DNA of 64,000 nt from an uncultured Candidatus Saccharibacteria bacterium. Lineage in GTDB: Bacteria; Patescibacteriota; Minisyncoccia; Phycocordibacterales; JACOZG01. Positions within the stretch are counted from its first letter, which is position 1. Each line of letters begins with the position of its first letter. The notes below the pieces were generated by a model. The model saw nothing but the letters and a program-made list of their open reading frames with translations, had not been told where the DNA came from and searched no databases. Of this stretch, positions 32,462-53,629 are shown piece by piece. The stretch lies in assembly GCA_964399075.1 (NCBI GenBank), contig CAYNPK010000001.1:55457-119456 (forward strand). Direction: 5' to 3'. Position numbers and translations under genes: made by a program.

Positions 32462-32477
32462 AAAAATAATTTTATAC

Positions 32478-32906: not shown

Positions 32907-32912
32907 GTTATA

Positions 32913-33293: not shown

Positions 33294-33302
33294 AAATTTA
33301 AA

Positions 33303-33419: not shown

Positions 33420-33430
33420 GTTTAATTTGT

Positions 33431-33670: not shown

Positions 33671-33678
33671 TATTTGAG

Positions 33679-34941: not shown

Positions 34942-34943
34942 AA

Positions 34944-36101: not shown

Positions 36102-36125
36102 TTTAAAAGTATAACATGAATTAGC

Positions 36126-37685
36126 TTAAGGAAGGACACTGGGATTGTGAATAATTTTAAGCTTTTCAACTAAAGAAAGTATTTCTGAAGAGTCTGGACG
36201 ACTTTGTTGAGAAATCGAGATAAACTGAGCAATAGTCGGCCATAGAATCATCGAACGCCTTTCTGGTGTCAAATCATTCCAGTTTTCCGCTTCCTTATCT
36301 GGATCTGTGTAATCTGTGTGAGCTAGAACAGGGGGAGTTATTTTTTTTAGATTAGATTTAGGTTTGGATTTAACCAAAACAGGAAGATTATCATCTTCTG
36401 GGACTTGGGATGAAGTATAAAGTAAGACAGAAAAAGTTTCGCTAGCTGAATTATTAGACAGATCAACCGCCTGGCAAGTTACCAAAGTGGTACCAAGATC
36501 AAAAATCGTTCCAGAACTCGGACTACAAATAACCTCGACAACGCCATCGACCATATCGCTAGCAACTGGATAATCATAGTTAACAACGCTCGGTCCACCA
36601 ACTTCAATTTCTCTATCAACCACCGAAGATAAAACCGGTGGCGTAGTATCAACAACCGTAATTGTTCTTGTAATTGGTAGGGCTGAATTATCAGACAAAT
36701 TATTAACTTGATAAGTGACGATATGTTCGCCCAAAATAAGGGTATCAATTGGCAAACCGGTAACTTCAATAAGATCTGTAAGATCACCGTCATCTTGATC
36801 CCAAGCCGTAGCTCCGAAATCCACATAAGTTGAACCAGCCTCGACAACAATCAGCTCCTCGCCAATCAAAATAATAACAGGAAGATCTGGGTCAACCTCA
36901 ACAACTTCTTCCATTATTTCTTGCACGACAGTGTCAGAAGTACTGCCCTGGAAATTATCGTCACCCTCGTAAACAACAAAAAGTGAATGGAGCCCGGGCA
37001 ACAAATCAGAAATAGAAACAGTAGCCACGCCAGCAGAGTCTAATTCCAATGATTCAGCCAGATCTGTTTCCCCAAATTCACCAGTTTCTTTCAATTTAAT
37101 AACTCCGCTAGGAATACCAACACCGTCAGGAGAAGAATGAGACACAGTGACCACTAATTCTAAATCTTCTGTTGGCAAAGATGGGTTTGTTGCAGAAGAC
37201 AGAGTTATAATGCTATCAGCTTGATCGACTGTCTTATTTAAGGGGGCACTGTAGCCAATTGCAAGATTAATTAAACCCTCACTTTTATCAATAACTTCAG
37301 CAGTCAAATTAACTTCACCAGCCGAAGTGTCGCGATAGAAAAAATTATCGGTGTTTTGTCTGGGTGAAAGAATATCAAGAATTAAGTTTGTTTCTGTAAA
37401 ATCACCAACAGTGCTAGTATCAAAATACCCAGTTGGAGAATCTGAAGAAATTTTTACTCTAAGATATTGATCAGTCCCAGTTACCGCTTCAGCTAGGCCG
37501 TCAATATTTTGAGCCCGAATTCTTAGCGGTTTTGAAGTGATATTAGGCAAACCAACAATAAAACTTGGTGGCTGATCTACAGGATTAAATCCAATTTGAG
37601 TAATTTCATCACTGGCCGCTTCGACAATTCTAAAAACACCAAAAAGGCTAACCAAACAAAAGGTTAGAATAAAAAGATTTTTCAT
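36126..37685 (-). CDS. secreted protein with tandem bacterial Ig-like (DUF5011/HYR-like) domains
   Basis: Signal peptide. ...DDGDLTDLIEVTGLPIDTLILGEHIVTYQVNNLSDNSALPITRTITVVDTTPP and a second ...DGVVEVICSPSSG...LVTCQAVDLSNNSASETF repeat. Confidence 0.45.
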   Translation of the reverse strand: MKNLFILTFCLVSLFGVFRIVEAASDEITQIGFNPVDQPPSFIVGLPNITSKPLRIRAQNIDGLAEAVTGTDQYLRVKISSDSPTGYFDTSTVGDFTETNLILDILSPRQNTDNFFYRDTSAGEVNLTAEVIDKSEGLINLAIGYSAPLNKTVDQADSIITLSSATNPSLPTEDLELVVTVSHSSPDGVGIPSGVIKLKETGEFGETDLAESLELDSAGVATVSISDLLPGLHSLFVVYEGDDNFQGSTSDTVVQEIMEEVVEVDPDLPVIILIGEELIVVEAGSTYVDFGATAWDQDDGDLTDLIEVTGLPIDTLILGEHIVTYQVNNLSDNSALPITRTITVVDTTPPVLSSVVDREIEVGGPSVVNYDYPVASDMVDGVVEVICSPSSGTIFDLGTTLVTCQAVDLSNNSASETFSVLLYTSSQVPEDDNLPVLVKSKPKSNLKKITPPVLAHTDYTDPDKEAENWNDLTPERRSMILWPTIAQFISISQQSRPDSSEILSLVEKLKIIHNPSVLP

Positions 37686-37699
37686 TTAATTAAATTTTT

Positions 37700-39505
37700 T
37701 TATTTTAAAACAGCTTTAATACGACGAATACCGGCAGCAATCGCTTCTTCTTTAATAATCTTGAATTCACCTAATTCTCCCGTCCGAGACACATGCGGAC
37801 CGCCACAAAATTCTTTAGAATAAGCGGAGTCTAAGCTATCGCCAATATAATAAACCGACACTTGCTCACCGTATTTGTTGCCGAAAAACCGAAGCGCGTC
37901 AGTCTTCTCCGCATCAGCGCGATTCATGATTTGGCAATTGACTGGTAAATCTTGTTGGATAATATTATTCACTTCGGTTTCTACGGCTAACTTCTCTTCA
38001 GTTGTTAATTTATCTCCGTGAACGAAATCGAAGCGCAACCGCTCTGGAGTGATGTTACTCCCCTTCTGTTGCACTTGATCACCTAAAACATTTCTTAGAG
38101 CCTGATGCAAGAGATGAGTAGCGGTGTGATATCTAGTTTCTAGCTCACTAGTACCAGCCAAACCACCCTTAAACTTTTGACCGGCACCAGCTCGAGAGAG
38201 TTGCTGGTGTTTTTTCATTTCCTGATTAAATTCACTAACATCAACACCCAATCCTTTTTCATCAGCAAGCTCAATAGTCATCTCGAGAGGAAATCCATAG
38301 GTTTGAAAAAGATAAAATGCATCCGTACCAGAGATTACCTTGTTTCTCATTTTTACATTAAAATTATACATTCTACCAAACCACTTAATTCCTTCCCGCA
38401 AAGTCACTCGAAACTTTTCTTCCTCTAAACTAATTTCTTTTTTAATTTTTACCCATTCAGTCTTTAATTCCGGATAAACTTCTTGATATTTCTTAACAAT
38501 CACTTCCGCAATTTCAGTCAAAGCGCCGTTACCTAATCTTGAAGAATCAGCATAACGCACCGCGCGACGCATTAGACGACGCAAAATATAACCCCGATCA
38601 GTATTGGTTGGCAGAACACCATCCGCGATCATGAATACCGATGTCCGAATATGATCAGCAATAATTCTCGCTGATTTACTGTCTGAATTTTTAGCTAGAT
38701 TTTTAATTTTACTAATAATCTCATCGAAGAGATCAGTCTCGTAAATACTTCCTTTTTTCTGAATGACCATCAAGAGTCGTTCTAGCCCGGCGCCTGTATC
38801 CACATTGCGCTCCTTCAATTTTCCAATAACTTTGCCCTGATCTTTCTGAAATTCCATGAAAACATCATTCCAAACTTCAACGATTTTTTGCTCGTCTTCC
38901 GCTTTCTGTTCTTCTTCCGGAGTTAAATCACCCAAGCCCTTCGGAGTAATGTCATAAAACATTTCTGTACAAGGCCCCGTTGGACCAGACCAAGAATCAA
39001 CACCTTTTACCGCTGGCCACCAATTGGCATCCGCGCCCTTAAAATAAATTCGCTCTTTGGGCACGCCAACTTTCTGCCAAATTTCCGCCGACAAAGTATC
39101 CCGAGGCGAATTCTGATCACCGGCAAAAACGGTGACATAGAGTCGAGCTGGATCAAGCCCCAGTCCTTCTTCAGTGGAAGTTAAAAATGCATAACTCCAC
39201 TCAATCGCCTCTTGCTTAAAATAATCTCCTAGAGACCAATTACCCAGCATCTCAAAAAAAGTAGCATGAGTGTTATCACCAACATCCTCAATGTCAGTGG
39301 TGCGAACACATTTTTGGACATTGGCTAGGCGCTTGCCGGCAGGATGTTTCTCGCCCAGTAGATAAGACACTAGAGGTTGAACACCGGCGGAAATAAAGAG
39401 GGCCGAAGGATCATTCTCCGGCACGAGAGAAGCCGAAGGCAGGATAGCGTGTCCGCGCTGTTTGAAAAAAGCTAAGAATCGTCGGCGAATTTCTGTTGAT
39501 TTCAT
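37700..39505 (-). CDS. alaS: alanine--tRNA ligase (short form lacking C-Ala domain)
   Basis: True start MKSTEIRRRFLAFFKQRGH at 39505. Editing-domain HxxxH/CxxxH present (HTATHLLH, CGGPHV). About 600 aa. Confidence 0.85.
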   Translation of the reverse strand: MKSTEIRRRFLAFFKQRGHAILPSASLVPENDPSALFISAGVQPLVSYLLGEKHPAGKRLANVQKCVRTTDIEDVGDNTHATFFEMLGNWSLGDYFKQEAIEWSYAFLTSTEEGLGLDPARLYVTVFAGDQNSPRDTLSAEIWQKVGVPKERIYFKGADANWWPAVKGVDSWSGPTGPCTEMFYDITPKGLGDLTPEEEQKAEDEQKIVEVWNDVFMEFQKDQGKVIGKLKERNVDTGAGLERLLMVIQKKGSIYETDLFDEIISKIKNLAKNSDSKSARIIADHIRTSVFMIADGVLPTNTDRGYILRRLMRRAVRYADSSRLGNGALTEIAEVIVKKYQEVYPELKTEWVKIKKEISLEEEKFRVTLREGIKWFGRMYNFNVKMRNKVISGTDAFYLFQTYGFPLEMTIELADEKGLGVDVSEFNQEMKKHQQLSRAGAGQKFKGGLAGTSELETRYHTATHLLHQALRNVLGDQVQQKGSNITPERLRFDFVHGDKLTTEEKLAVETEVNNIIQQDLPVNCQIMNRADAEKTDALRFFGNKYGEQVSVYYIGDSLDSAYSKEFCGGPHVSRTGELGEFKIIKEEAIAAGIRRIKAVLK

Positions 39506-39536
39506 TGATTTAGCTATTCTAACAAATTTTAAACAT

Positions 39537-39569
39537 AAAAAAAACAGGCAAACCTCATCGGCTTGCCTG
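39537..39569 (-). terminator. rho-independent terminator of the alpha-CTD-like gene
   Basis: Minus strand: CAGGCAA-loop11-TTGCCTG then TTTTTTTT. Confidence 0.55.
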
Positions 39570-39589
39570 CGCCTCACTCTCCCAGCTTG

Positions 39590-39988
39590 TCAAACACCAT
39601 CAGACTTTGCCGGCGACTTCCAGGCGAGAATCTCTCTTTCAGTCATCCCCAGACGAAGGCCAGAGATAGTGAGCAGTTTGCCTTCGATCTCCTTAAGAGT
39701 ACCGTACCCAAGACCACGAATACAAAGCAACTCATAGTCTCTCTTCCTGACCAATTCACCAATGGTCCGAATTCCAATTTTAACGAGACAATGTCTCGCT
39801 CGTGACGACAATTCAAGCAAGCTAAGTTCGCACTCAAAAATGTCGGCAGGTGAAGTTCTGGGTAACCCAACGAGGGGGTCACAATCTGACCAAATTCCAA
39901 TATATCTCAAGCGAGACTTGAGGGCTTGATTTTCTTTTTCCAGTCTTCGATTTTCTGCTTCGAGATTACTGATCCTGTTCGTCATCAC
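39590..39988 (-). CDS. stand-alone RNA polymerase alpha-subunit C-terminal-domain (alpha-CTD)-like protein with N-terminal coiled coil; high GC
   Basis: C-terminal ELSLLELSSRARHCLVKIGIRTIGELVRKRDYELLCIRGLGYGTLKEIEGKLLTISGLRLGM aligns with E. coli alpha-CTD [58 protein letters not shown]. N-terminal heptad region (LEAENRRLEKENQALKSRL). AGGA RBS. Confidence 0.6.
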   Translation of the reverse strand: MMTNRISNLEAENRRLEKENQALKSRLRYIGIWSDCDPLVGLPRTSPADIFECELSLLELSSRARHCLVKIGIRTIGELVRKRDYELLCIRGLGYGTLKEIEGKLLTISGLRLGMTEREILAWKSPAKSDGV

Positions 39989-40025
39989 ACACCGTCCTTT
40001 CTGGTTAGGGTTTTAGATGTCCAAG

Positions 40026-40055
40026 TCCACTTTAATATCTAGCATAAGCATCTAC
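40026..40055 (-). promoter_or_regulatory. putative promoter for the alpha-CTD-like gene (TTGACA-N18-TAGATA)
   Basis: Minus-strand TTGACAttatgtagatgcttatgcTAGATA upstream of the RBS; -10 is imperfect. Confidence 0.3.
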
Positions 40056-40061
40056 ATAATG

Positions 40062-41120
40062 TCAAACACTAATGATTCCCCCGCCCAAACACTCATTGCC
40101 ACGATAAATCACCAGAGATTGGCCGGAAGCGATGGCGCTTGGCGGTCTAGCGGTAAATTCTATTGTTAAAGATTTTCCCTGTTGGTTTAATACACAAGGA
40201 ACTAATTCGCCACGATGGCGAATTCTGGCGGTTAACTTGTTTAAATCAGTTTTACTTAGCAAATTAATTTGCTCTAGAGTAATTATTCTAGAATTAAGCT
40301 TATCGATAATTTTTTTATTTTGCGAAACTACCAAAATATTTTTTACCAGATCGCGACTGACAATATAATACGGCTTATCAGAGGCTGTTTTTTTATTTAT
40401 TTTAAATCCGTGACGCTCACCGATAGTATAGAATATCGCACCCTCATGTTCTCCTACCAATTCCCCATTATCGTTAAGAACCAGTCCAGATTTGGTCTTG
40501 AGATAACGTTTAAGAAAGTCTTTGACATCAACCTTGCCAATGAAGCACAGGCCCTGACTGTCTTTCTTAGTCGCATTTGATAATCCAAATTTACTTGCCA
40601 ACTTCCGTACTTCGGTTTTATGCAAGTGCCCCACTGGAAAAAGAATGTGCTTCAGTTGTTGAGTCTTAAGAGTCCAGAGGAAATAAGTTTGGTCTTTCTC
40701 TTTGTCTTTACTTGCTAATAATTTATTATTTTTAATTTGAGCGTAATGACCAGTTGCAACATAATCAGCGCCTCGTTCCATTGACCAATCGTAAAAAGCG
40801 CCAAACTTAATATGACGATTACACATTACGTCTGGATTAGGTGTCCGGCCGCGAGCGTATTCTCCAATCAAATAATCGACCACTTCCCTCTTGTAGATCT
40901 TCTCTAAATCAAGCGTCAAGAGTGGTATATCCAAGCGAGCGGCCACGCGCATCGCCTCACGTCTGTCATCTCGCCAAACACAAGGATAGCCGGGAGGTTC
41001 CCAAACTTTAATGAAAACCCCCACCACTTTATAGCCAGCCTTAACAAGCAAAGCCGCCGATACGGAACTATCGACGCCACCGGACAAACCAACAAAAACT
41101 GTGCCCTTTACTTGTCTCAT
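40062..41120 (-). CDS. mnmA: tRNA-specific 2-thiouridylase MnmA
   Basis: PP-loop VFVGLSGGVDSSVSAALL, MnmA conserved Cys residues. Confidence 0.9.
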   Translation of the reverse strand: MRQVKGTVFVGLSGGVDSSVSAALLVKAGYKVVGVFIKVWEPPGYPCVWRDDRREAMRVAARLDIPLLTLDLEKIYKREVVDYLIGEYARGRTPNPDVMCNRHIKFGAFYDWSMERGADYVATGHYAQIKNNKLLASKDKEKDQTYFLWTLKTQQLKHILFPVGHLHKTEVRKLASKFGLSNATKKDSQGLCFIGKVDVKDFLKRYLKTKSGLVLNDNGELVGEHEGAIFYTIGERHGFKINKKTASDKPYYIVSRDLVKNILVVSQNKKIIDKLNSRIITLEQINLLSKTDLNKLTARIRHRGELVPCVLNQQGKSLTIEFTARPPSAIASGQSLVIYRGNECLGGGIISV

Positions 41121-41133
41121 TTATACCCTAACC

Positions 41134-41667
41134 CTAACCTTCTATCAGTCGCTTGTAAACTTCTAGAGCTGTTTTAGCATCAGACAAGGCCGAGTGAGCC
41201 TGTTTATTGATAATACCAAAATGTTCGCAAAGTGATCGCAGATTAAAGCGCTGAACTTGATTATGGTGATAAAGTTTGACGAAAGCCATTGACAGAAGAT
41301 CCAGACGGACACTGGCCATTAAATTTGGCACCTTAGTTTTGGCAAAAGCTCTCTCTAGAAAGGCCCAATCGAAGGTGATGTTATGACTAATCATTATTGC
41401 CCCCTCGGCCTTGTCGTTTAGAGCCTTAAGAGCTTGATCTAGATCAGACGCAAAGATCCAATCAGCGCTATTGTAACTATTGATTCGCAAGGCTTCCGGC
41501 TCAGCAGTTTCCAGATGTTCCGGCTTTACTTTAAGATCAAGCTCACTAACAATTTCAAAATTTGCTCCTGGTTTGACAACAACACAACCGATTTCGATAA
41601 TTTCCTGTCTCTCTGGATCAAGACCGGTCGTTTCTAAGTCAATAAAAGCTAGATTATTCTTTTTCAT
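41134..41667 (-). CDS. DEDDh 3'-5' exonuclease (DnaQ/epsilon-like)
   Basis: Exo I motif FIDLETTGL; H-x4-D motif near the C-terminus (HSALSDA). Confidence 0.75.
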   Translation of the reverse strand: MKKNNLAFIDLETTGLDPERQEIIEIGCVVVKPGANFEIVSELDLKVKPEHLETAEPEALRINSYNSADWIFASDLDQALKALNDKAEGAIMISHNITFDWAFLERAFAKTKVPNLMASVRLDLLSMAFVKLYHHNQVQRFNLRSLCEHFGIINKQAHSALSDAKTALEVYKRLIEG

Positions 41668-42578
41668 GCTTGAGGCATTATACTATTTCGTAAATATTGA
41701 TCAATATTTTTCTTGTGATCAGGATAATTACGAGCGTAGTGAGTCTGACCAGTGTTATCAGAAAGGAAAAACCAAAATTCATTTGGAACTGGATCAAGAG
41801 TGGCCATGATCGCTTTGAGACCCGGACTAACAATCGGTCGTTCTGGCAGACCATAATTTTCGTAAGTTTCGCGAGCCACATCAACCTCTAGTTTCCAACC
41901 TTCATCAAGCCTCTTCCAGAGAATACCAGCAATCATTCGACGAGTTTCGTAATCACTAGCTTCTTTTTCCACAATAGAACTCATCACCAGCACCTCTTCT
42001 AGAGAACGGCCACTATCTGTAATTTGCCCCTGGAGATCTGCGATTTGCCGTTGGAAATTTTTATTCATCAGGTCCAAAATTTGCTCGACTTTAATTCGTG
42101 AAGGAAATAAATAAGTACTGGGGAATAAATAACCTTGCTTACTTAAACCCATCTCAATAAAAACATCGGGATCAAATTCCAACAGTGGCGCTCGAGAAAA
42201 TATTTTAGCCATTTGCGCTACTGATAGACCTTCGGGCAAAGTAACTTTAACCGGCGCTAAAGTAAAATCACCATCAATGAAGCGCCGAGCTAGCTGAAAA
42301 ACATCAAGCGCTTCTTCAAATTGATAATAACCAGCAATTACCCGATCCTCGCCAGCAAACCACTTGGTGACAGTGGTAAAAACTAGAGGCGAGCGAATGG
42401 CTTTTTGCTGATATAAAGTCAGACTAATATTCTTTAAACTTTGCCCTGATTCGATAACTATAATTTGATCGACCGGAAAATATTTAGGCGGAGCAAAAAA
42501 AGCACCAAACAATAGCAAGGCGCCAATTATTAAGAAAGAAGCGATTGCGCCGATAATAATAATAAAATAACGTAACAT
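41664..42578 (-). CDS. mltG: endolytic murein transglycosylase MltG (YceG family)
   Basis: N-terminal TM plus YceG-like domain; 4-bp overlap with the exonuclease gene. Confidence 0.8.
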   Translation of the reverse strand: MLRYFIIIIGAIASFLIIGALLLFGAFFAPPKYFPVDQIIVIESGQSLKNISLTLYQQKAIRSPLVFTTVTKWFAGEDRVIAGYYQFEEALDVFQLARRFIDGDFTLAPVKVTLPEGLSVAQMAKIFSRAPLLEFDPDVFIEMGLSKQGYLFPSTYLFPSRIKVEQILDLMNKNFQRQIADLQGQITDSGRSLEEVLVMSSIVEKEASDYETRRMIAGILWKRLDEGWKLEVDVARETYENYGLPERPIVSPGLKAIMATLDPVPNEFWFFLSDNTGQTHYARNYPDHKKNIDQYLRNSIMPQA

Positions 42579-43949
42579 CTAGATGGGCAAATTAGTCGGT
42601 GGTTCAGCGCGCTTAGATTCAACCCTCTTTAAGCTTGGGGTGGCCACTACCCGACCAGGAAGATGGAAAATTGTGGCTAACTCTTCGGTCGTTAAAATAT
42701 AAGGTTTATTCATAAAATTTTGATACGGCGGTTGGAAAATCGAACGCTTTTTATAAGCATCGAGCATTTGAATTTCCATTTTATTGCGAACTTTGCGCAT
42801 ATGATTAGAGAACCAAGGCAACCAACCAAAAACAGTCAAGAGATCTTTTCCCAGATCTCTGTGGTCCGTAAACCAACCGAGTTTCAACTTATTCAACTCC
42901 TCGGAATTATACTGGCGCACACTACCAATTAATCCGGTAATATTTCCAGAATTAAAGTGATCTTTACGAGCGATATAGAAACCGCGCATCATCACTTCAA
43001 AGGGCAACTTCGCAATACTGCGCTCGATAGCCTCCATTTTTAATTGTTGACCCTTGGTTGGATGAGAAAAAGAAGTTTTCCCTTTATTGCCTTCTTGGGT
43101 AATGATATCGGCCTCAACAATCGCCTCTTTACGAATCTCCTCAATTTCATCTAAGGCTGCCTGTGTCCAATTTGGTTTTTCAAACAATCTGCCATCTTTA
43201 AGACCCTCCTTGCGGTGAGCTTGGCATAAAATTTGAATCCAGACTCGTTCATTGGGACCAACAGAACCTAGGTATTCCAAAACCGAACTAATAGGATCAA
43301 TCTTCTCTTCTTCTTCCGCCGGTTTGTCTAAACCATAATCAATATAAGTTTTAATGGGATAAACATCATCTTCCGCCAATTTAAAATGAGTTCCCCACAT
43401 AATCCAGGTTTCTGGGTCCCAATGAACTTCCTCCGTGTAATCTTCGACTTGACGGATTTCAATATCAGGATATTGAGCATAAAGTTGAGCCTCCACCACA
43501 TCCCGCATTTTATCTTGGCTCACCCAGATAAAGAATTTAACATCACCACCAAGAGAAACCAATTCACAGGAAAACCAGGGTCTGATTTTACCCAGCCAGT
43601 ATTGTTCAAGAAAAGAAGTATTTCCGGGTAAGTACAGAGAAGTAAAAAATAACTCCATAGCCAGAGGAGAACGACTCACTTCTCGTGGGAGTTTGATTTC
43701 CAATAAAACTGACTTCTGTGAAGCAACGCTAAGACTACGGATATAGAGCAACCACAAGCGCCAGAAAAGCATACCCAACATGAAGGTAAGCCAAATTGGC
43801 GCTGTTAGCAATAAATAATAAGCTGTCCTAGCAAGAACGGTTCCGGTTCCTGACCAGACAACAAAGAGAATGATCAAGCCGAAGAAACCCAGCAACAAAA
43901 CCAGGACGATCCAAATTTCTTTTAAAAACTCAAGAAATTTCTCAGGCAC
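42579..43949 (-). CDS. hypothetical membrane protein (2 N-terminal TMs + about 350-aa cytoplasmic domain)
   Basis: No recognisable motif; abuts mltG with no gap. Confidence 0.4.
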   Translation of the reverse strand: MPEKFLEFLKEIWIVLVLLLGFFGLIILFVVWSGTGTVLARTAYYLLLTAPIWLTFMLGMLFWRLWLLYIRSLSVASQKSVLLEIKLPREVSRSPLAMELFFTSLYLPGNTSFLEQYWLGKIRPWFSCELVSLGGDVKFFIWVSQDKMRDVVEAQLYAQYPDIEIRQVEDYTEEVHWDPETWIMWGTHFKLAEDDVYPIKTYIDYGLDKPAEEEEKIDPISSVLEYLGSVGPNERVWIQILCQAHRKEGLKDGRLFEKPNWTQAALDEIEEIRKEAIVEADIITQEGNKGKTSFSHPTKGQQLKMEAIERSIAKLPFEVMMRGFYIARKDHFNSGNITGLIGSVRQYNSEELNKLKLGWFTDHRDLGKDLLTVFGWLPWFSNHMRKVRNKMEIQMLDAYKKRSIFQPPYQNFMNKPYILTTEELATIFHLPGRVVATPSLKRVESKRAEPPTNLPI

Positions 43950-44006
43950 CTAATAAGTATAATCTAGAATGAGAAAATTATCTACAGATTTAAACTTTAA
44001 ACAATT

Positions 44007-45080
44007 TTAAACCAGAGTATAACGCCCCTGTTTGTCTTGCTTGAAGTAACGACGATTCTTAATGTTAACCATAACGGTATTTTCTTTAACATAACGCTCT
44101 TTCATCACCTTGCTTAGAATTTCTTCTTTAGATAGAGGGCCATTATCTTTTATAATTTGACGAATGACATCTCTAACTACCCCTTTAATGTAACCCCACT
44201 CGCTAAGAGCATAGATACCGCGCCCAACTAGGATAAAGCGACCATCTTTAATTAATTCGTTATGACAAGTGGCAGAGTTAGCCTTGCGACCAAAGTTTTG
44301 CTGGATCGCCTTAGCAACTTCTGTAAAGTGCATTGGAGAACCATGCTTGCGCATAATTAAATAAGCATAATCACGAATGCCTCGAACATAAACATTGGGT
44401 GAGCTAGTTAATCCCCAATCACCGATTGGCGATTTTCCAATCTCCTTAGAGAGCATCAAATAACGTTTGGCGTGAGCCTTAGCTTGTTCCGGAGAAAGAG
44501 TTTCGTACAGATTTTTTAGAAAAGTATCAATAATCTCCTGTTCAGATAATAATTGATCTTCTGACAATTGAGTACACAAATTTTTAAGCGAGCCTCGAAC
44601 TCCTTCTGCCAATTCCGGATCAGTCGTCCAGTGGTGATAGAACGAATCTCCTTCTTTAACTTTAGAGAAGGCATCGCCTAACACTAGAAGAAAGTGAATA
44701 TTATTTTGGGTCATCCGTTCGCCAGATAGGTGGTTTAGAAATTCTTGCTCATGAACGATTCCGCCATATTGCTCCATCGCTGATTGCAATTCCGAAAAGA
44801 TTTCGGCTGACTCATTCATTACCGAAGAACGACGGATAGTCTTGAGACTAAAGTCTTCAATCTGGCGTACTCGTTCGCGGGTAATTTGATACTTTTTACC
44901 AATAGCCTCGAGGGTTAAACCTTTGTCGCTTTCTAAACCAAAGCGCATCTTTAAAATATCTTGCGCTCGCTCAGGCAAAACGGTTAACAAAGCACGGGTC
45001 ACCTTCTTTGGCTTAAATGTGAGAACTTCTTTGCTGATCATGATTAAATTTATTAAATCTATTCTTATAATTAAACTCAA
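44007..45080 (-). CDS. sigma-70 region-4-like HTH protein with C-terminal winged-helix (Mrr-N-like) domain; function unknown
   Basis: N-terminus LLTVLPERAQDILKMRFGLESDKGLTLEAIGKKYQITRERVRQIEDFSLKTIRR is a classic region 4.2. C-terminus ...GRGIYALSEWGY looks like a winged helix. Confidence 0.5.
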   Translation of the reverse strand: MSLIIRIDLINLIMISKEVLTFKPKKVTRALLTVLPERAQDILKMRFGLESDKGLTLEAIGKKYQITRERVRQIEDFSLKTIRRSSVMNESAEIFSELQSAMEQYGGIVHEQEFLNHLSGERMTQNNIHFLLVLGDAFSKVKEGDSFYHHWTTDPELAEGVRGSLKNLCTQLSEDQLLSEQEIIDTFLKNLYETLSPEQAKAHAKRYLMLSKEIGKSPIGDWGLTSSPNVYVRGIRDYAYLIMRKHGSPMHFTEVAKAIQQNFGRKANSATCHNELIKDGRFILVGRGIYALSEWGYIKGVVRDVIRQIIKDNGPLSKEEILSKVMKERYVKENTVMVNIKNRRYFKQDKQGRYTLV

Positions 45081-45128
45081 TTAAACTGTTATAGCTATTT
45101 CTAGCATATCAACATATTGTCGTCAAGG

Positions 45129-47975
45129 TCAAATCACAATATTAACCAATTTACCCGGAACATGAACGACTTTCTTAATCTTCTTATCTACTAACCATTT
45201 CTGGATTTTAGCTCTATTCTTAGCCTCAATTTCAATCTCAAGTGGCGACAATGACGGTGACACTTTAATAGTATCACGGAGAATTCCATTAATTTGAATA
45301 GCGATGGTGATTTCGTCAACAATGATTTTATCAGGATCATATTTCGGCCAAGGAGCAAGATGAATTGAGCGACTATTACCAAGCTCATGCCACAATTCTT
45401 CAGTTAAATGAGGAGCAAATGGAGCTAAGAGCTGAAGCATTAATTCATAATCCTGACGACTAATGTTCTCCTCTGTCTCCAGACTATTAACTAAAATCAT
45501 TAAAGAAGAAATCGCGGTATTGAAGCGCATGGCCTCAACATCCTCACTAACTTTTTTAATCGTTTGATGCAGAAGTAAGGTTAATTTTGAATTATCACTA
45601 CTCTCTTCTTTTTTGGCCACCTTGCTCCTTAAACGCCAGACTCTTTCCAGAAACCGCCGTGGGCCAATTAGACTCTCCGTACTCCAGGCAATGGCTTGAT
45701 CGAATGGTCCCATAAACATCTCGTAGAGTCGCAGAGTATCAGCACCATAAAGTTCCACAAACTTATCCGGATTAACCACATTGCCTCTTGATTTGGACAT
45801 TTTCTCTCCCCCTTCGGCCAAGATCATTCCGTGAGAAGTTCGCTTCTGGTATGGTTCACTACTCGGCACTAAGCCAAGATCGAACAAGAATTTGTGCCAG
45901 AATCGCGAGTAGAGCAAGTGGAGAGTAGTGTGCTCCATTCCACCGTTATACCAATCCACTGGCGTCCAGTGTTTTAACTTTTCTAAGGAGGCAAATGCAT
46001 CTATATTTCGAGAATCAACATAACGCAAATAATACCAACTAGAGCCAGCCCAATTAGGCATCGTGTCGGTCTCTCGCTCAGCTGGACCAGCGCAAGTTGG
46101 ACAAGTAGTCTTAACCCAATCAGTGATACCGGCAAGTGGTGATTCTCCGGTTTCTGTTGGCTGATAGCGTTCTACCGCCGGCAAAGTAACAGGCAAATCC
46201 TTCTCCGGCACCGACACCCAACCACACTTAGAACATTTAATCATTGGGATTGGTTCACCCCAATAGTGTTGACGAGAAAAAACCCAGTCACGAAGTTTGT
46301 AAGTAACTTTTTGTTGACCAAATTTATTAGTAATTTTTTCCTGCGCTTCTTCAGAAGCTAAACCATCAAATTCATTAGAATTAATCATCTCGCCTTCCAT
46401 AGAAAGAGCTGTTTCTGAAATTAACTGATTCCAAACCAGTTTTTGATGATCAGGGGTCAATCTATCAATTACAAGATCTTCATCTACCCATACAAGTGTA
46501 TGAAGTTTCTGTTCCGACTCAGCAATCACACCTTGATTCTTTAGACTATCAATTTCTGCTAATATTCCATAAGAAACCGCTTTTCTATTTTGTTTTTTGT
46601 GCGAGGCACAATATTTGGCTGCAGTGATCCAGCGTAATTTATTTTTAATAACAATTCCTTCAAGAGAGGCTTCTTCTTTTATCTCCATGAGTGCCGCCTC
46701 TTCTGGCGTCTGACCAGCCTCAATACCACCCATTATTGCTGTAGTAATACCTTCTAAACTCTCGTGCCAATCAAGTAATGCAAATTTGCCCGTAGACTTA
46801 TCACGCAAGTGGACAATAATTGTATCTCGCACAACTTCTTCAAAACCTTCACGAGGTGGATTTATTGAATCATCTTCGCATGGCATTATAACCTGCTTGA
46901 TAGGCAGATTAAATTTTTTCGCAAACGCATAATCTCTCTCATCGTGCGCCGGCACAGCCATCACGGCACCGGTGCCATACGACACCAAAACATAATCGGC
47001 GATCCAAACCGGAACCTTCTCTTGATTAGCAGGATTAATGGCAAAAACACCATCTAGCACAACGCCAGTTTTCTCTCGCCCTTCTGTGATGCGATCCATC
47101 TCGGTCTTAGTTTTGACTTCCGCTAAATATTCCTCCACCGCCGGCCAATTTTTAATTTGCGATTTCAATTTTTGAATCAACTCATGCTCCGGAGCTAATA
47201 CCACATAAGTAACCCCGAAGAGCGTGTCAGCCCTAGTGGTAAAGACTGAAACTTTTTCTCCAGAATCAACAATTTTAAATTCAAATTCCGCGCCGACACT
47301 TCGGCCTATCCAATGGCGTTGTTGAATTTTAATTTTCTCCAAATAATCTACCGTGTCTAAATCTTTATCTAATCTGTCAGCGTACTTAGTAATCGCCAAC
47401 ATCCACTGTTCCTTATCTCGCTTCTCCACCGGCGTCCCGCATCGTTCGCAATTCCCACTAACCACTTCCTCATTGGCCAAACCAATTAAACACTTAGGAC
47501 ACCAATTAATCGCCATCTTCTTCTTGTAAGCCAAACCTTTCTTAAATAATTGCAAGAAGATCCACTGCGTCCACTTGTAATATCCCGGATCAGTGGTGTT
47601 GATTTCTCGCGACCAATCAAAAGAGAAACCAAGCGACTGGAGTTGTCGCCTAAAAATATCAGTATTCTGCTTGGTAACAATCGCCGGCTGGACGCCAGTC
47701 TTAATCGCGTAATTCTCCGTCGGCAGACCGAAGGCGTCCCAGCCAATAGGATAGAGAACGTTATACCCTTCGGCGCGTCGCTTGCGGGCAATCACATCCA
47801 TTGCTGTGTTGCTCCGAATATGCCCGACATGCAAACCGTCGCCGGAGGGATAAGGAAATTCAATCAAGCAATAATATTTCCGCTTATCACTATTATCTAG
47901 AGCTTGATAAATTCCATCTTTTTCCCACTCCCTCTGCCACTTTGGTTCTATTTCTTTATGGTCGTAATTTTTCAT
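45129..47975 (-). CDS. leuS: leucine--tRNA ligase
   Basis: True start MKNYDHKEIEPKWQ at 47975. HVGH and KMSKSRGN motifs. Confidence 0.9.
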   Translation of the reverse strand: MKNYDHKEIEPKWQREWEKDGIYQALDNSDKRKYYCLIEFPYPSGDGLHVGHIRSNTAMDVIARKRRAEGYNVLYPIGWDAFGLPTENYAIKTGVQPAIVTKQNTDIFRRQLQSLGFSFDWSREINTTDPGYYKWTQWIFLQLFKKGLAYKKKMAINWCPKCLIGLANEEVVSGNCERCGTPVEKRDKEQWMLAITKYADRLDKDLDTVDYLEKIKIQQRHWIGRSVGAEFEFKIVDSGEKVSVFTTRADTLFGVTYVVLAPEHELIQKLKSQIKNWPAVEEYLAEVKTKTEMDRITEGREKTGVVLDGVFAINPANQEKVPVWIADYVLVSYGTGAVMAVPAHDERDYAFAKKFNLPIKQVIMPCEDDSINPPREGFEEVVRDTIIVHLRDKSTGKFALLDWHESLEGITTAIMGGIEAGQTPEEAALMEIKEEASLEGIVIKNKLRWITAAKYCASHKKQNRKAVSYGILAEIDSLKNQGVIAESEQKLHTLVWVDEDLVIDRLTPDHQKLVWNQLISETALSMEGEMINSNEFDGLASEEAQEKITNKFGQQKVTYKLRDWVFSRQHYWGEPIPMIKCSKCGWVSVPEKDLPVTLPAVERYQPTETGESPLAGITDWVKTTCPTCAGPAERETDTMPNWAGSSWYYLRYVDSRNIDAFASLEKLKHWTPVDWYNGGMEHTTLHLLYSRFWHKFLFDLGLVPSSEPYQKRTSHGMILAEGGEKMSKSRGNVVNPDKFVELYGADTLRLYEMFMGPFDQAIAWSTESLIGPRRFLERVWRLRSKVAKKEESSDNSKLTLLLHQTIKKVSEDVEAMRFNTAISSLMILVNSLETEENISRQDYELMLQLLAPFAPHLTEELWHELGNSRSIHLAPWPKYDPDKIIVDEITIAIQINGILRDTIKVSPSLSPLEIEIEAKNRAKIQKWLVDKKIKKVVHVPGKLVNIVI

Positions 47976-48894
47976 CTTGAATAGGAATGAGAGGGTAACG
48001 TTCCTGATCAATAGTTCTAGTAAAACAGGTATAACCTGTTTCGTGTTCCCAATTTTGTTGGACATCACCAAGTTGAGTTGGCCTCATTATGGCGGGAGCA
48101 GTATTATCTCGATTAGCAAGATTAAAATCAGCGCATAATTCAAATTCTTCTGGACCAAGCACTCGATAATCGTAAGCGACTCCAGTTTGTGGATCAAGAG
48201 GAATCTGATAATTAGAAATAGGGTCACTTAAATCCGTGAGAGCAAGCGGTAGAGAGTGTTTCTGTTGCCAATAATTAACAATCTGCCACTGAATATTTTG
48301 CAAATCATTAATTTTTCTCTCGTCAAAGCGCATTAGACGAACCGTCTGCGGTGAACCCATAATTACAAAACCGCCAACGATAGAGGCAATAATAACTACC
48401 AGAGAACTGATCGCCATTATTTTATTTAAGCGCGAATTTGTTTCATTCCTGCGTACGTCATACAAATAATAACCAAAAACTGCCATGGCAATAATCAATA
48501 CTGCTAGAACCTTAAGAATAAAGCGCGTGGTTATCTCACCGCCCAGAAAGTAATTAATTAGAGTAATAAGATTAATTACCAGAGTGACTCCAGCCACAAA
48601 TAAAGTGATGTAAATCAACCACTTACGGATCCACAAATCGCGCTTAGCCGGATCTTGAACATAATTACGATTTAAAAGCCAAGACAATAACACATAGAGT
48701 GGGAAAACAATCAAGAGCGAAGCAATAGACCAACGAATACCGGCAGAATAAGGATCAGAAAAATAATATTCCAATTGATCGGGAAAAGAAATATTGATAA
48801 TTCTAAACAACAAAGTCAGTAAACTAATAGTGCTGACAAACAAGGCGACAATAACGCCAAGATGCAAAAAGAAATCTTTTGGTGTGGTTTTCAT
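47956..48894 (-). CDS. hypothetical polytopic membrane protein with C-terminal soluble domain
   Basis: 4-5 TM helices then a soluble tail; 20-bp overlap with the leuS start. Confidence 0.4.
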   Translation of the reverse strand: MKTTPKDFFLHLGVIVALFVSTISLLTLLFRIINISFPDQLEYYFSDPYSAGIRWSIASLLIVFPLYVLLSWLLNRNYVQDPAKRDLWIRKWLIYITLFVAGVTLVINLITLINYFLGGEITTRFILKVLAVLIIAMAVFGYYLYDVRRNETNSRLNKIMAISSLVVIIASIVGGFVIMGSPQTVRLMRFDERKINDLQNIQWQIVNYWQQKHSLPLALTDLSDPISNYQIPLDPQTGVAYDYRVLGPEEFELCADFNLANRDNTAPAIMRPTQLGDVQQNWEHETGYTCFTRTIDQERYPLIPIQDEKLRP

Positions 48895-52077: not shown

Positions 52078-52118
52078 GTATCTAGTCTATACCTACCCCT
52101 TGCATAATTCAATTCCAA

Positions 52119-52151
52119 TAAAAAGGGCCGATGGAAATAAATCCACCGGCC
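52119..52151 (-). terminator. rho-independent terminator of the PEP-CTERM gene
   Basis: Minus strand: GGCCGGTGGA-loop7-TCCATCGGCC (one mismatch) then CTTTTTATT. Confidence 0.55.
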
Positions 52152-52181
52152 GAGTTTTATCTATTGTCTCACTGTGTCAAC

Positions 52182-52775
52182 CTACTGTCGTCGTCTACGC
52201 ACCAGCCCCAGGAACCCGAAACTCATGAGACCAAGCGATGCAGGTTCAGGAATCGGAATGCCAGTGAGAATGAAGTCATCAAAGTGCATCCGATCGCCAC
52301 TACTGTCCATAACGGCCGTTAGTCGTAAGGTGAAATTGGAATTGTCATCCGAAGCGACAGGCAAGAGAAGCGTCTCAGGACGCCAAACTGTTTCGGCCTG
52401 CAGTCCTTCGTAAGCAACAAGCTGCTCCCAATCAATGTTGTTGTTGGAGATCTCAACGCGAATGATGTCTTCATCCAGCTCTATACTCTCCCTTACTTTA
52501 TACCAATACTTGAGGGAGATGTTATGATAGCCAGCTAAAGAGATTTGTCCCATCAACTCATCACCCTGTTCAAACCCAGCACTCCGGCCATAAATATCGG
52601 CACTGAATTGACCAGAATGTGCTGTTTCAGTAGTCGTTCTCCATAAGCCAAAATTTCCAGGGAACCAGTTAGAGAAATTCCCCGACTCGAAATCGTCACT
52701 CCAAATCACTGCCTGGGCCCATGTCGGAACGCAAACCAACAACAACACCGTCACTGCCACAAAAATCGTCTTCAT
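52182..52775 (-). CDS. PEP-CTERM sorting-domain secreted protein; high GC
   Basis: Signal peptide MKTIFVAVTVLLLVCVPTWAQA. C-terminus PEPASLGLMSFGFLGLVRRRRQ is PEP motif, hydrophobic helix, then Arg cluster. AGGAGA RBS. Confidence 0.6.
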   Translation of the reverse strand: MKTIFVAVTVLLLVCVPTWAQAVIWSDDFESGNFSNWFPGNFGLWRTTTETAHSGQFSADIYGRSAGFEQGDELMGQISLAGYHNISLKYWYKVRESIELDEDIIRVEISNNNIDWEQLVAYEGLQAETVWRPETLLLPVASDDNSNFTLRLTAVMDSSGDRMHFDDFILTGIPIPEPASLGLMSFGFLGLVRRRRQ

Positions 52776-52976
52776 CTCGAATCTCCTGACAAAGAACCAT
52801 CGTGCCCAGAAAACATTTCCGAGCGCTTATCAAACTATAGACTGGCATTTATTCTCTATTAAGTCAATAGCTATTCAATTTGCCGAGCGCCTAAAATCAC
52901 TCCAGACGCTTCAAAAACCCAAGATTGTAGTTGGTTCCAACTTTGGCATACTAAGTCCACCAAACGAAATGAGAAA

Positions 52977-53110: not shown

Positions 53111-53629
53111 TTAAGTTTGATTATTGTATAATATCTTAAGCTTGATAAGACCCCGATGCGCTTGCACGGCAACAGTATTTCTCGATTGACCCGTAATGAG
53201 AGCTATCTCTTTAAGCGAGAGATCCTGCGCATACCTCATTCACATCACTTTCTCGTATTTTGCCGGAAGGTACTTGATTAAGAGTAAGGCCACCTTACCG
53301 TCAAAGATGTTGGAAACGCGTTCGGAATGATCGAAACTTGGCTGAAAACCTTTTTCAAGAAGGACATCAAGAGAAGATGTCTTGTGTTTACGATATTCAT
53401 CAATAATCAGGTGATTCAGAATGTGGTACAAAAACGGCTTCATCAGATCAATCTTTCCTCCCTTAACGAGATAATCCCAAGTTTTAATGAAGGTGTCTTG
53501 AACCAAATCTTGACCAGTTGCATGATTGTGTACCTTGAAAAAAGCATGCGAATTCATCATTTTCCCATAGTCATGGTGGGCTACGGTCAATATTCCCTCT
53601 CGTTCAATTTTCTGCTTCGGAGTCATCAT
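53111..53629 (-). pseudogene. ECF-type sigma-70 family factor interrupted by a single in-frame TGA (region 2 in 53240..53629; region 4 HTH in 53111..53239)
   Basis: Upstream ORF ends ...LLIKYLPAKYEKVM-TGA and the same frame continues MRYAQDLSLKEIALITGQSRNTVAVQAHRGLIKLKIL. Together these reconstitute the canonical region-4 sequence (LPxxYRxVxxLRYxxDLSxKEIAxxxGxSxxTV). Confidence 0.55.

What the first reader, a model, noticed from the sequence alone, without database searches (positions are those of the whole stretch)
52119..52976. PEP-CTERM sorting-signal protein without an exosortase in view
The protein has a clear signal peptide and a textbook C-terminal PEP-motif/TM/Arg-cluster tag (PEPASLGLMSFGFLGLVRRRRQ). 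This tag is processed by exosortase (EpsH/XrtA) in diderm bacteria that make exopolysaccharide.

The gene is GC-rich and has its own RBS and terminator. No exosortase gene is present in the window. In a presumed small-genome organism the substrate would be non-functional unless an exosortase exists elsewhere.
Basis: partly seen in the sequence, partly recalled or inferred. Interest (0 to 1): 0.55.

Follow-up and report, generated by a model that had tools for sequence, protein, structure and literature searches.

The report
PEP-CTERM surface protein in a CPR bacterium
The gene really does encode a secreted sugar-binding-like surface protein with a textbook PEP-CTERM anchor, but it belongs to a family shared by related ultra-small (CPR/Patescibacteria-type) bacteria, a group thought to lack the outer membrane this sorting signal normally goes with.

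Summary
Observation confirmed. Window 52182-52775 (minus strand) encodes a 197-aa protein. It has a signal peptide, a confidently modelled beta-jelly-roll domain of carbohydrate-binding-module/adhesin type, and a C-terminal PEP-CTERM domain that scores above both curated cut-offs. It has its own ribosome-binding site and terminator, and a higher GC than the window. No exosortase lies in the window or in 8 kb further left.

The "isolated acquisition, probably non-functional" reading is not supported. About 36 of the best 150 relatives share the same short architecture, and Pro-Glu-Pro is invariant in the 35 aligned. Five carrier contigs are collinear with this window (core proteins 50-79% identical), yet the gene sits at four or five different sites. 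Promoter-like box, leader hairpin, ORF and terminator are conserved as one ~750-bp unit. The only close hits in named genomes are two MAGs labelled Candidatus Saccharibacteria.

So this is a resident, relocating surface-protein cassette of a CPR clade. Whether these genomes encode an exosortase-type enzyme could not be tested. None appeared in roughly 20 inspected neighbourhoods. The held literature has no paper linking exosortase with Patescibacteria, and none that discusses PEP-CTERM proteins in CPR. This is a new family of a known kind in an unexpected lineage, of moderate interest.

The parts
52182..52775 (-). Coding sequence of the 197-aa PEP-CTERM protein (stop TAG at 52182-52184)
   Evidence: ORF list. 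An identical protein is on record in NCBI and in three independent Logan assemblies with the same neighbours.
52710..52775 (-). Signal peptide, aa 1-22 (MKTIFVAVTVLLLVCVPTWAQA, predicted cut after A-Q-A)
   Evidence: Read from the sequence. AF2 predicts helix 2-14. Homologues have equivalent hydrophobic N-termini ending just before the conserved (V/I)(I/L)WSDGFE. No dedicated signal-peptide predictor was available.
52254..52709 (-). Beta-jelly-roll passenger domain, aa 23-174 (carbohydrate-binding-module / adhesin-like)
   Evidence: AF2 with a 35-sequence alignment: mean pLDDT 92.9, pTM 0.83, eleven strands. Foldseek against PDB: best matches are CBM families (porphyran-binding CBM, CBM61, CBM22, CBM16, CBM4) and gingipain cleaved-adhesin domains, E 2.5e-8 to 1e-6, TM 0.5-0.57 on the query and up to 0.73 on the target. 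Weak sequence hits fall below cut-off: choice_anchor_J at 19 bits against 30, CBM_4_9 at 17.3 against 25.9.
52185..52253 (-). PEP-CTERM domain, aa 175-197: PEP motif, hydrophobic helix, RRRRQ
   Evidence: TIGR02595 at 22.9 bits against 16, and PF07589 at 26.1 against 20.7. AF2 predicts helix 178-196. P176, E177 and P178 are invariant in 35 family members.
52783..52787 (-). Shine-Dalgarno AGGAG, 7 nt upstream of the ATG
   Evidence: Sequence. Conserved in the DNA alignment with L029 and L004.
52804..52824 (-). Leader stem-loop (GCUCGGAAA-UGU-UUUCUGGGC, 9 pairs of which 2 are G.U)
   Evidence: Predicted in the MFE fold. The same hairpin occurs in L029 and L004, differing only by changes that give G.U pairs. 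Across 13 family leaders the best hairpin in -65..-19 is more stable than in 26 control leaders (median -9.8 against -5.8 kcal/mol, Mann-Whitney p=0.0011). Its function is not established.
52835..52867 (-). Conserved upstream box TTGACTTAATAGAGAATAAATGCCAGTCTATAG (promoter-like)
   Evidence: Conserved between window, L029 and L004 although the flanking genes differ. Homology stops upstream of it. The consensus scan gives TTAATA-17-TATAGT, 9 of 12 matches, at 52862-52834. Promoter function is inferred, not shown.
52117..52151 (-). Intrinsic terminator (GGCCGGTGG-ATTTATTT-CCATCGGCC followed by CTTTTTATT)
   Evidence: Terminator scan. The hairpin is conserved in L029 and L004, after which homology ends.

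Best explanation
The gene encodes a genuine, resident cell-surface protein of a CPR/Patescibacteria-type bacterium.

Shown:
- It is a monocistronic cassette: conserved upstream box, leader hairpin, SD, ORF, terminator.
- The product has a Sec signal peptide, one CBM/adhesin-like beta-jelly-roll domain and a canonical PEP-CTERM tail.
- It belongs to a family of about 200-aa proteins with the same three parts. The family is found in genomes collinear with this one and in MAGs labelled Candidatus Saccharibacteria.
- The cassette lies at different chromosomal sites in different relatives.

Inferred:
- After Sec export the protein is held at the membrane by the C-terminal helix and Arg cluster.
- The invariant Pro-Glu-Pro at the membrane interface is recognised by a membrane-embedded sorting enzyme of the exosortase/archaeosortase kind, or an analogue, encoded elsewhere in the genome.
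- That enzyme removes the helix and transfers the domain to a surface acceptor. This would leave the sugar-binding-like domain displayed on the cell, plausibly for attachment to host or matrix glycans.
- Because CPR bacteria are proposed to lack an outer membrane, the outcome would resemble archaeosortase A / PGF-CTERM anchoring in single-membrane archaea more than export to an outer-membrane or EPS layer.
For: - PEP-CTERM scores above both curated cut-offs. The same holds for relatives.
- Family: 529 proteins at E<=1e-3, and about 36 of the best 150 are short signal-peptide + domain + PEP-CTERM proteins. In a 35-member alignment only W131, D166 and P-E-P are invariant.
- Native to the lineage: L026/L033 shares 17 collinear orthologues with window 29678-48071. 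L029 is collinear with window 1585-8226 (DnaB 79%). L004, L035 and L051 are also collinear. Placement in this genome is reproduced in three independent assemblies.
- Named carriers: two Candidatus Saccharibacteria MAGs. One has two PEP-CTERM ORFs 9 kb apart.
- Cassette conservation.
- Fold and CBM/adhesin similarity.
- More distant homologues of the domain carry other lineage-typical anchors: T9SS tails, dockerin-like repeats, plain TM anchors. This fits a surface-display module.
- Established knowledge: Haft 2006 (PMC1569441) argued that conservation of the PEP motif reflects interaction with a specific protein. ArtA cleaves PGF-CTERM and a lipid is attached in a single-membrane archaeon (PMC6098224; bioRxiv 10.1101/2023.06.07.544157).
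Against: - No exosortase (PF09721 or NCBIfam Xrt/Art models) was found in the 64-kb window, in 8.4 kb further left, or next to family members in roughly 20 loci.
- Only one PEP-CTERM ORF lies in the window, whereas classical systems have a median of 8 per genome.
- PEP-CTERM systems are described only from bacteria with an outer membrane and EPS loci, and no EPS genes were seen here.
- One family member (L034) has SEP instead of PEP, so the motif is not absolutely fixed.
- The CPR assignment of the window itself is indirect. It rests on synteny with unnamed metagenome contigs, on named Saccharibacteria MAGs that share only this gene, and on gene content.
- Cleavage, the acceptor and glycan binding are all inferred.
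Confidence: 0.55

Rival explanations
1. The tail is never processed. The protein is simply a type-I membrane protein held on the single membrane by its C-terminal helix and Arg cluster. The PEP motif is kept as an inherited or structural feature, for example a helix-breaking interface element, and no sorting enzyme is involved.
For: - No exosortase was seen anywhere inspected.
- Long homologues in CPR-like proteins use plain C-terminal TM anchors without PEP.
- Copy number is low, one or two per genome region.
- L034 tolerates SEP.
- Chlorobium tepidum also has two PEP-CTERM proteins and no EpsH (PMC1569441).
Against: P-E-P is invariant in 35 members that are only 29-46% identical to this protein, while the rest of the tail varies freely. 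That is hard to explain without a specific recognition partner. The tails score like canonical PEP-CTERM domains.
Confidence: 0.3
2. The gene is a recent horizontal acquisition from an outer-membrane-bearing bacterium (for example a host) and is an orphan, effectively non-functional substrate.
For: - GC3 is 0.515 against a median of 0.353 for the window.
- Other GC-rich ORFs without family hits occur in the window.
- The location varies among relatives.
Against: - The family is present in at least five collinear relatives and in other CPR-type contigs, with intact ORFs, signal peptides and regulatory flanks.
- Gene GC tracks host GC, from 0.38 in a 0.31 contig to 0.65 in a 0.51 contig. This indicates long residence.
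- The GTDB-representative scan found no relative above 30% identity in diderm phyla.
- There were no hits in viral contigs.
Confidence: 0.07
3. The PEP-CTERM tail is recognised by the exosortase or EPS machinery of a host or neighbouring cell, or serves to blend into a PEP-CTERM-protein-rich floc matrix, rather than by an enzyme of the CPR cell itself.
For: Circumstantial only. CPR bacteria are described as episymbionts, including on floc-forming Zoogloea, whose flocs need PEP-CTERM proteins (PMC11393006). No exosortase was seen in the CPR DNA.
Against: The tail would be buried in the CPR cell's own membrane after Sec export. No precedent is known, and nothing here tests it.
Confidence: 0.03
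4. Assembly artefact: the gene belongs to another organism and was joined to this contig by mis-assembly or mis-binning.
For: Higher GC than the surroundings.
Against: Three independent assemblies from runs SRR11845627-29 place the identical gene between the same neighbours. Collinear relatives carry homologues.
Confidence: 0.02

Closest known systems
PEP-CTERM / exosortase (EpsH, XrtA) protein-sorting system (Haft et al. 2006, PMC1569441)
   Same: - N-terminal signal peptide.
- C-terminal tripartite tag (PEP, hydrophobic helix, Arg cluster) scoring above the TIGR02595 and PF07589 cut-offs.
- Single-gene unit with a sizeable upstream intergenic region.
- A passenger with little homology to characterised families.
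   Different: - The carriers are CPR-type genomes, for which absence of an outer membrane is proposed. [quoted passage not shown]
- One or two copies were seen rather than many.
- No exosortase or EPS genes appear in any inspected neighbourhood.
PGF-CTERM / archaeosortase A of Haloferax volcanii
   Same: A tripartite C-terminal signal with the motif abutting the helix, on a surface protein of a cell with a single membrane. This is a plausible mechanistic model: cleavage plus covalent anchoring at the membrane surface.
   Different: The motif is PEP, not PGF. The organism is bacterial. No archaeosortase homologue was found here. This is an analogy of mechanism only and was not tested.
Choice-of-anchor J domain proteins (NCBIfam NF038128)
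   Same: The passenger domain gives weak hits to this model in 11 of 35 family members. Like choice-of-anchor domains, its homologues appear with different lineage-specific anchors: PEP-CTERM, T9SS tail, dockerin-like repeats, TM helix.
   Different: The score of 19 bits is below the 30-bit cut-off, so it is not a member by the curated threshold.
Carbohydrate-binding modules CBM4/16/22/61 and gingipain cleaved-adhesin domains
   Same: Same beta-jelly-roll fold by Foldseek (E down to 2.5e-8, target TM up to 0.73).
   Different: Sequence identity is 9-20%. Pfam CBM_4_9 scores below its cut-off. No ligand-binding residues were examined, so sugar binding is inferred from the fold alone.
Chlorobium tepidum: PEP-CTERM proteins without an EpsH homologue (Haft 2006)
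   Same: A low copy number of PEP-CTERM proteins with no exosortase detected.
   Different: There it was treated as a degenerate system in one genome. Here a whole protein family keeps the motif across many genomes.

Membership tests
PEP-CTERM sorting domain (TIGR02595 / PF07589) | HMM score at or above the curated cut-off, with the domain at the extreme C-terminus | tested here: met
   TIGR02595 at 22.9 bits (cut-off 16), residues 175-197 of 197. PF07589 at 26.1 bits (cut-off 20.7).
PEP-CTERM sorting domain (TIGR02595 / PF07589) | Tripartite layout: Pro-Glu-Pro motif, hydrophobic helix directly after it, basic cluster at the end | tested here: met
   IPIPEP-ASLGLMSFGFLGLV-RRRRQ. AF2 helix 178-196.
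PEP-CTERM sorting domain (TIGR02595 / PF07589) | N-terminal signal peptide on the same protein | tested here: met
   MKTIFVAVTVLLLVCVPTWAQA with A-x-A before the conserved mature start. No dedicated predictor was run.
PEP-CTERM / exosortase system | An exosortase (EpsH/Xrt, 8 or more TM, Cys-Arg-His) encoded in the same genome | not testable with these tools
   Only about 72 kb of this genome could be read (window plus L052), and no candidate lies in it.
PEP-CTERM / exosortase system | Several to many PEP-CTERM proteins per genome (median 8; Haft 2006) | tested here: inconclusive
   One PEP-CTERM ORF in the 64-kb window and none in the extra 8 kb. Two lie within 10 kb in the Saccharibacteria MAG L012. 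Whole-genome counts were not possible.
PEP-CTERM / exosortase system | Host organism has an outer membrane and exopolysaccharide loci | tested here: inconclusive
   No outer-membrane or EPS genes were recognised in the window. The closest named carriers are labelled Candidatus Saccharibacteria. CPR bacteria are proposed to lack an outer membrane. The taxonomy of the window itself is inferred, and the envelope was not observed.
PEP-CTERM / exosortase system | Single-gene operon preceded by a large intergenic region | tested here: met
   A 201-bp upstream intergenic region (52776-52976), its own SD, and a terminator directly downstream. The cassette is conserved as a unit.
Choice-of-anchor J domain (NF038128) | Score at or above the 30-bit cut-off | tested here: not met
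   19 bits, residues 31-167 on profile positions 24-159. 11 of 35 family members give weak hits.
CBM_4_9 (PF02018) | Score at or above the 25.9-bit gathering cut-off | tested here: not met
   17.3 bits over residues 22-71 only. The fold similarity to CBMs is nevertheless strong.
Named PEP-CTERM protein families (floc PepA NF033554, XDP1 NF041927, THxN NF038125, NF038120, NF038129) | Full-length match above the family cut-off | tested here: not met
   Only the 23-residue tail aligns, at 14-21 bits against cut-offs of 65-125.

The most novel reading that the evidence does not exclude
A clade of CPR/Patescibacteria, cells thought to have a single membrane and no exopolysaccharide machinery, uses PEP-CTERM as a working surface-sorting signal. 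Processing would be by a so-far unrecognised enzyme: a divergent exosortase acting in a monoderm envelope as archaeosortase does, or an unrelated protease. The substrate family would be a relocating adhesin cassette that displays a glycan-binding module for attachment to host cells.
Probability: 0.3. Interest if true: 0.7.

Novelty: new member of a known kind. Interest (0 to 1): 0.5.

Why it matters
[quoted passage not shown] How ultra-small CPR episymbionts anchor proteins on their surface and hold on to hosts is largely unknown.

A conserved PEP-CTERM protein family in CPR-type genomes gives a concrete, cheap test. One can profile complete CPR genomes for the family against all membrane-protease families.
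- If an exosortase co-occurs, the system's range extends to presumed monoderm, genome-reduced bacteria, and the CPR surface proteome gains a marker.
- If none does, an invariant orphan sorting motif points to an unknown processing enzyme.

Either way, the small CBM-like domain is a candidate host-glycan adhesin. In the held literature I found no paper that discusses PEP-CTERM proteins or exosortases in CPR/Patescibacteria.

Tried and rejected
- **Word-indexed protein search with the single protein.** It found only itself. With the 35-member alignment it returned only 3 proteins. The exhaustive phmmer search was what revealed the family.
- **First genome-contig scan with the single protein.** It found nothing. 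The 35-member alignment was too diverse to seed a scan. An 11-member alignment worked.
- **Looking for an exosortase.** I screened all ORFs of the window and loci for TM segments and ran Pfam/NCBIfam on the polytopic ones. They are FtsW, MraY, DUF5671, bPH_2, DUF2914, DUF6580, TspO, ArsP, ZIP, EamA and similar, with no exosortase, rhomboid or CPBP protease.
- **Looking for a recurrent unknown membrane-protein neighbour.** There is none. The HEAGH membrane protein next to the L012 copy has no counterpart elsewhere.
- **Extending L012 downstream and the window leftwards.** No exosortase was found.
- **Phage carriage.** There were no relatives in viral contigs.
- **Idea that the conserved CTCTTTG box sequesters the SD, as in a fourU-thermometer.** Rejected. 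SD pairing probability is no higher than in control genes (median 0.54 against 0.70, p=0.77). The motif enrichment itself is weak (10/13 against 42% background, p=0.013).
- **RNAalifold on a MAFFT alignment of the leaders.** It gave no consensus structure because the hairpins differ in sequence and were misaligned. The hairpin claim therefore rests on per-sequence folds and a control comparison.
- **AF2 of the 199-aa lipoprotein-like ORF without an alignment.** Uninformative, pLDDT 30.
- **The afdb50 fold library.** Not available.
- **Direct taxonomy of the window.** I could not name the window's organism. Its NCBI contig is not in the position index and the genome is not a GTDB species representative.
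Full report
**1. What is at the coordinates**

The finding's interval 52119-52976 contains one real gene on the minus strand, 52182-52775 (197 aa, ATG to TAG).

- *Tail.* The C-terminus IPIPEPASLGLMSFGFLGLVRRRRQ matches TIGR02595 at 22.9 bits (cut-off 16) and Pfam PF07589 at 26.1 bits (cut-off 20.7). A small HMM built from the tails of family members picks out this ORF and no other among all six-frame ORFs of the window.
- *Signal peptide.* The N-terminus MKTIFVAVTVLLLVCVPTWAQA has the shape of a Sec signal peptide. The predicted cut after A-Q-A falls exactly before the block (V/I)(I/L)WSDGFE that starts the conserved domain in all relatives.
- *Flanks.* AGGAG sits 7 nt before the ATG. A 10-bp stem with 7 G-C pairs plus a T-run follows the stop (52151-52126).
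- *Composition.* The gene is GC-richer than its surroundings: GC 0.481 and GC3 0.515, against window GC 0.409 and a median GC3 of 0.353.

**2. No exosortase in view**

Exosortases are polytopic, with eight or more TM helices (PMC1569441). A hydropathy screen of all window ORFs finds only five with four or more TM segments.
- Four were scanned: FtsW, MraY, a DUF5671 membrane protein and a bPH_2 protein.
- The fifth is a 123-aa ORF nested inside another gene. It was not scanned and is too short to be an exosortase.

The remaining genes are housekeeping: aminoacyl-tRNA synthetases, ribosomal proteins, GrpE-DnaK-DnaJ, MurG, Ddl, a D-Ala-D-Ala carboxypeptidase, M23 and S41 peptidases, two-component systems and UvrC. 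No polysaccharide-export or outer-membrane biogenesis genes were recognised. A Logan contig extends the view 8.4 kb to the left (PBP, Mur ligase, an ECF sigma, a MacB-type ABC transporter) and also shows no exosortase.

**3. The passenger domain**

With a 35-sequence alignment, AlphaFold2 gives a confident model (mean pLDDT 92.9, pTM 0.83). It has an N-terminal helix, an eleven-strand beta sandwich (residues 22-174) and a C-terminal helix 178-196.

Foldseek against the PDB returns carbohydrate-binding modules as top matches: a porphyran-binding CBM, CBM61, CBM22, CBM16 and CBM4. Gingipain cleaved-adhesin and MAM domains follow. E-values run from 2.5e-8 to 1e-6, and TM-scores are 0.5-0.57 on the query and up to 0.73 on the target.

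Sequence models agree only weakly and below threshold: choice-of-anchor J at 19 of 30 bits, CBM_4_9 at 17.3 of 25.9. Sugar or surface binding is thus an inference from the fold.

**4. It is a family, not an orphan**

The word-indexed search saw only the protein itself. An exhaustive phmmer search of 1.84 billion representatives found 529 relatives at E<=1e-3.
- About 36 of the best 150 are proteins of 176-236 aa with the same three parts, 29-48% identical to ours.
- In an alignment of 35 of them, the only invariant residues are W131, D166 and the P-E-P of the tail. The hydrophobic stretch and the basic end vary freely.
- Longer homologues carry the same domain at the N-terminus of large proteins that end in plain TM anchors or other tails.
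- Distant homologues in named genomes end in T9SS-type tails (Bacteroidota) or dockerin-like repeats (Armatimonadota).

The domain therefore behaves like a surface-display module that is combined with whatever anchor a lineage uses.

**5. Who carries it**

I looked up the genomic context of ten family members and scanned the genome and metagenome collections with an 11-member alignment. Five contigs are collinear with this window.

| Locus | Source | Collinear with | Core-protein identity |
|---|---|---|---|
| L026/L033 | landfill metagenome 3300014208 | 17 orthologues in order, window 29678-48071 (LeuRS ... AlaRS ... IF1-S13-S11-S4-RpoA-L17-L13-S9) | 30-78% |
| L051 | Logan assembly | same block, continuing into GrpE-DnaK as in the window | 55-79% |
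| L035 | landfill metagenome | same block | 29-57% |
| L029 | ENA assembly | window 1585-8226 | DnaB 79% |
| L004 | ENA assembly | GrpE-DnaK-DnaJ | 62-75% |

- The only hits above 40% identity in 185,579 GTDB species representatives are two MAGs titled "uncultured Candidatus Saccharibacteria bacterium".
- One of these (L012/L049, GCA_964467325.1) has a second, unrelated PEP-CTERM protein 9 kb away, scoring PF07589 30.8 bits.
- Other carriers come from a 0.1-um groundwater fraction and from a 580-kb contig with 31% GC.
- Contexts elsewhere are type IV pilus genes, NusG-L11 and small hypothetical genes.

From this I infer that the window belongs to a CPR/Patescibacteria-type organism. That assignment is indirect, because I could not name the window's own genome.

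**6. A relocating cassette**

Although the carriers are collinear, the gene sits in different places:
- between AlaRS and the next surface protein in L026 and L051;
- directly after S9 in L035;
- beside L21 in L029;
- next to a restriction-modification/KAP-NTPase island in L004;
- between an ECF-sigma/DUF5670 pair and a tRNA cluster in the window.

A DNA alignment of the window, L029 and L004 shows where homology begins and ends. It starts at a box TTGACTTAA...AATAAATGCCAG (window 52835-52867). It runs through a leader hairpin, the SD and the ORF. It ends right after the terminator hairpin, and the flanks are unrelated.

The leader hairpin (window 52804-52824) differs between the three only by changes that give G.U pairs. 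More distant members have hairpins of different sequence at the same position. These hairpins are more stable than the best hairpins in the leaders of 26 control genes (median -9.8 against -5.8 kcal/mol, p=0.0011). The hairpin's role (mRNA 5' protection, attenuation or a protein-binding site) is open.

In most carriers the gene's GC3 exceeds the local median, yet gene GC also follows host GC: 0.38 in a 0.31 contig and 0.65 in a 0.51 contig. This fits long residence, with either occasional exchange among related genomes or expression-linked codon bias. It does not fit one recent import. No relatives occur in viral contigs.

**7. How it most likely works**

Shown:
- a self-contained, monocistronic unit;
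- a secreted protein with a CBM-like domain and a canonical PEP-CTERM tail;
- family-wide invariance of PEP;
- residence in a CPR-type clade.

Inferred:
- After Sec export and signal-peptide removal, the protein is tethered by its C-terminal helix with the Arg cluster inside.
- The PEP motif at the outer membrane face is recognised by a membrane-embedded sorting protease.
- The domain ends up covalently held at the cell surface.

Haft's original argument was that a nearly invariant Pro-Glu-Pro on a domain too small for catalysis implies a protein partner (PMC1569441). That argument applies equally here.

CPR bacteria are proposed to lack an outer membrane (bioRxiv 10.1101/2025.01.22.634366). 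The nearest working model is therefore archaeosortase A with PGF-CTERM, where the helix is removed and a lipid anchor attached in a single-membrane cell (PMC6098224).

The main rival is that the tail is simply a permanent TM anchor. I cannot exclude it, because no sorting enzyme was seen, copy number is low, and one member has SEP. I put enzymatic sorting at roughly 0.55 and the plain anchor at 0.3. The recent-HGT, host-enzyme and artefact readings are small. Three independent assemblies reproduce the gene's placement.

**8. Comparison with what is known, and novelty**

By the defining features of the domain (HMM score, position, tripartite layout, signal peptide, solitary gene), this is a PEP-CTERM protein.

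By the defining features of the system, membership is untested or inconclusive. Those features are a co-occurring exosortase, many substrates, an outer membrane and EPS loci. The passenger domain falls below the cut-offs of choice-of-anchor J, CBM_4_9 and every named PEP-CTERM protein family.

Literature searches gave the following:
- no paper holds both "exosortase" and "Patescibacteria";
- the papers that hold PEP-CTERM or exosortase together with a CPR term do not discuss such proteins in CPR. The one I opened cites PEP-CTERM only in its reference list, and the others are unrelated by title and abstract;

I therefore rate this as a new member (a new protein family) of a known kind in an unexpected lineage. 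Interest is moderate, and the follow-up is clear and cheap.

**9. Limits**

- The whole genome could not be searched, so "no exosortase" holds only for about 72 kb plus roughly 20 neighbourhoods of relatives.
- The CPR assignment and the monoderm envelope are inferred.
- Signal-peptide cleavage, tail processing, glycan binding, promoter function and the hairpin's role are all predictions.

Noticed in passing
window 53111-53629 (-), TGA at 53240-53242: The ECF-type sigma factor gene just upstream of the cassette is interrupted by an in-frame TGA between region 2 (129 aa) and region 4 (42 aa; PF08281 at 32 bits). The TGA sits where homologues have a hydrophobic residue (...KYEKVM*MRYAQDLSLKEIA). 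The same split is called in two independent Logan assemblies. TGA is an ordinary stop for 8 of 43 window genes, so this is not genome-wide recoding. It could be a pseudogene, a split gene or local read-through.
   Followed up: partly
window 52804-52824 (-), and the same position in L004, L007, L011, L012, L026, L029, L034, L035, L036, L047, L048, L051: Every family member has a stem-loop about 25-50 nt upstream of the start codon. The sequences differ, but stability is higher than in control leaders (median -9.8 against -5.8 kcal/mol, p=0.0011). A CTCTTTG-like box follows it in 10 of 13 members. The idea that the box masks the SD was tested and rejected.
   Followed up: partly
window 22477-23115 (-): A 212-aa ORF has GC 0.60 and GC3 0.78 in a 41% GC window and no Pfam or NCBIfam hit. 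It looks like recently imported DNA between TrpRS and another class-I aminoacyl-tRNA synthetase gene.
   Followed up: partly
window 1-1456 (and L052 7736-9872): The left end of the window is GC-rich (0.55-0.60). The plus-strand ORFs 29-397 and 560-919 are probably the reverse strand of a 378-aa minus-strand gene called in the Logan contig. None has a family hit.
   Followed up: partly
window 20642-21241 (-): A 199-aa protein has a lipobox-like FLGAC and an alternating pattern reminiscent of a small beta-barrel, with GC 0.50. It has no family hits. The single-sequence AF2 model was useless (pLDDT 30). An outer-membrane-type barrel in this genome would bear on the envelope question, but the resemblance is untested.
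   Followed up: partly
L012 9285-9788 (-), next to the PEP-CTERM gene at 9935-10537: In the Saccharibacteria MAG, a 167-aa polytopic membrane protein with an HEAGH motif lies divergently adjacent to the family member. It has no Pfam or NCBIfam hit and no counterpart in the window or in other loci.
   Followed up: partly
L034 9953-10543: The family member on a 580-kb, 31% GC contig has VSEP instead of (V/I)PEP and a weak basic end (FRHKIIARI). It may be a decaying or variant sorting signal.
   Followed up: no
proteins P0040, P0043, P0067, P0075, P0078, P0089 and others: Many long homologues of the passenger domain end in a shared C-terminal motif, roughly TGYVYKTTxRxINxLxCPxxxxPxPxL. It is not a TM anchor and I do not recognise it. 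It could be another lineage-specific C-terminal signal.
   Followed up: no
window 39590-39988 (-): A stand-alone 132-aa protein carries only an RNA polymerase alpha C-terminal domain (PF03118 at 49.6 bits), in addition to the full-length RpoA at 30806-31795.
   Followed up: no
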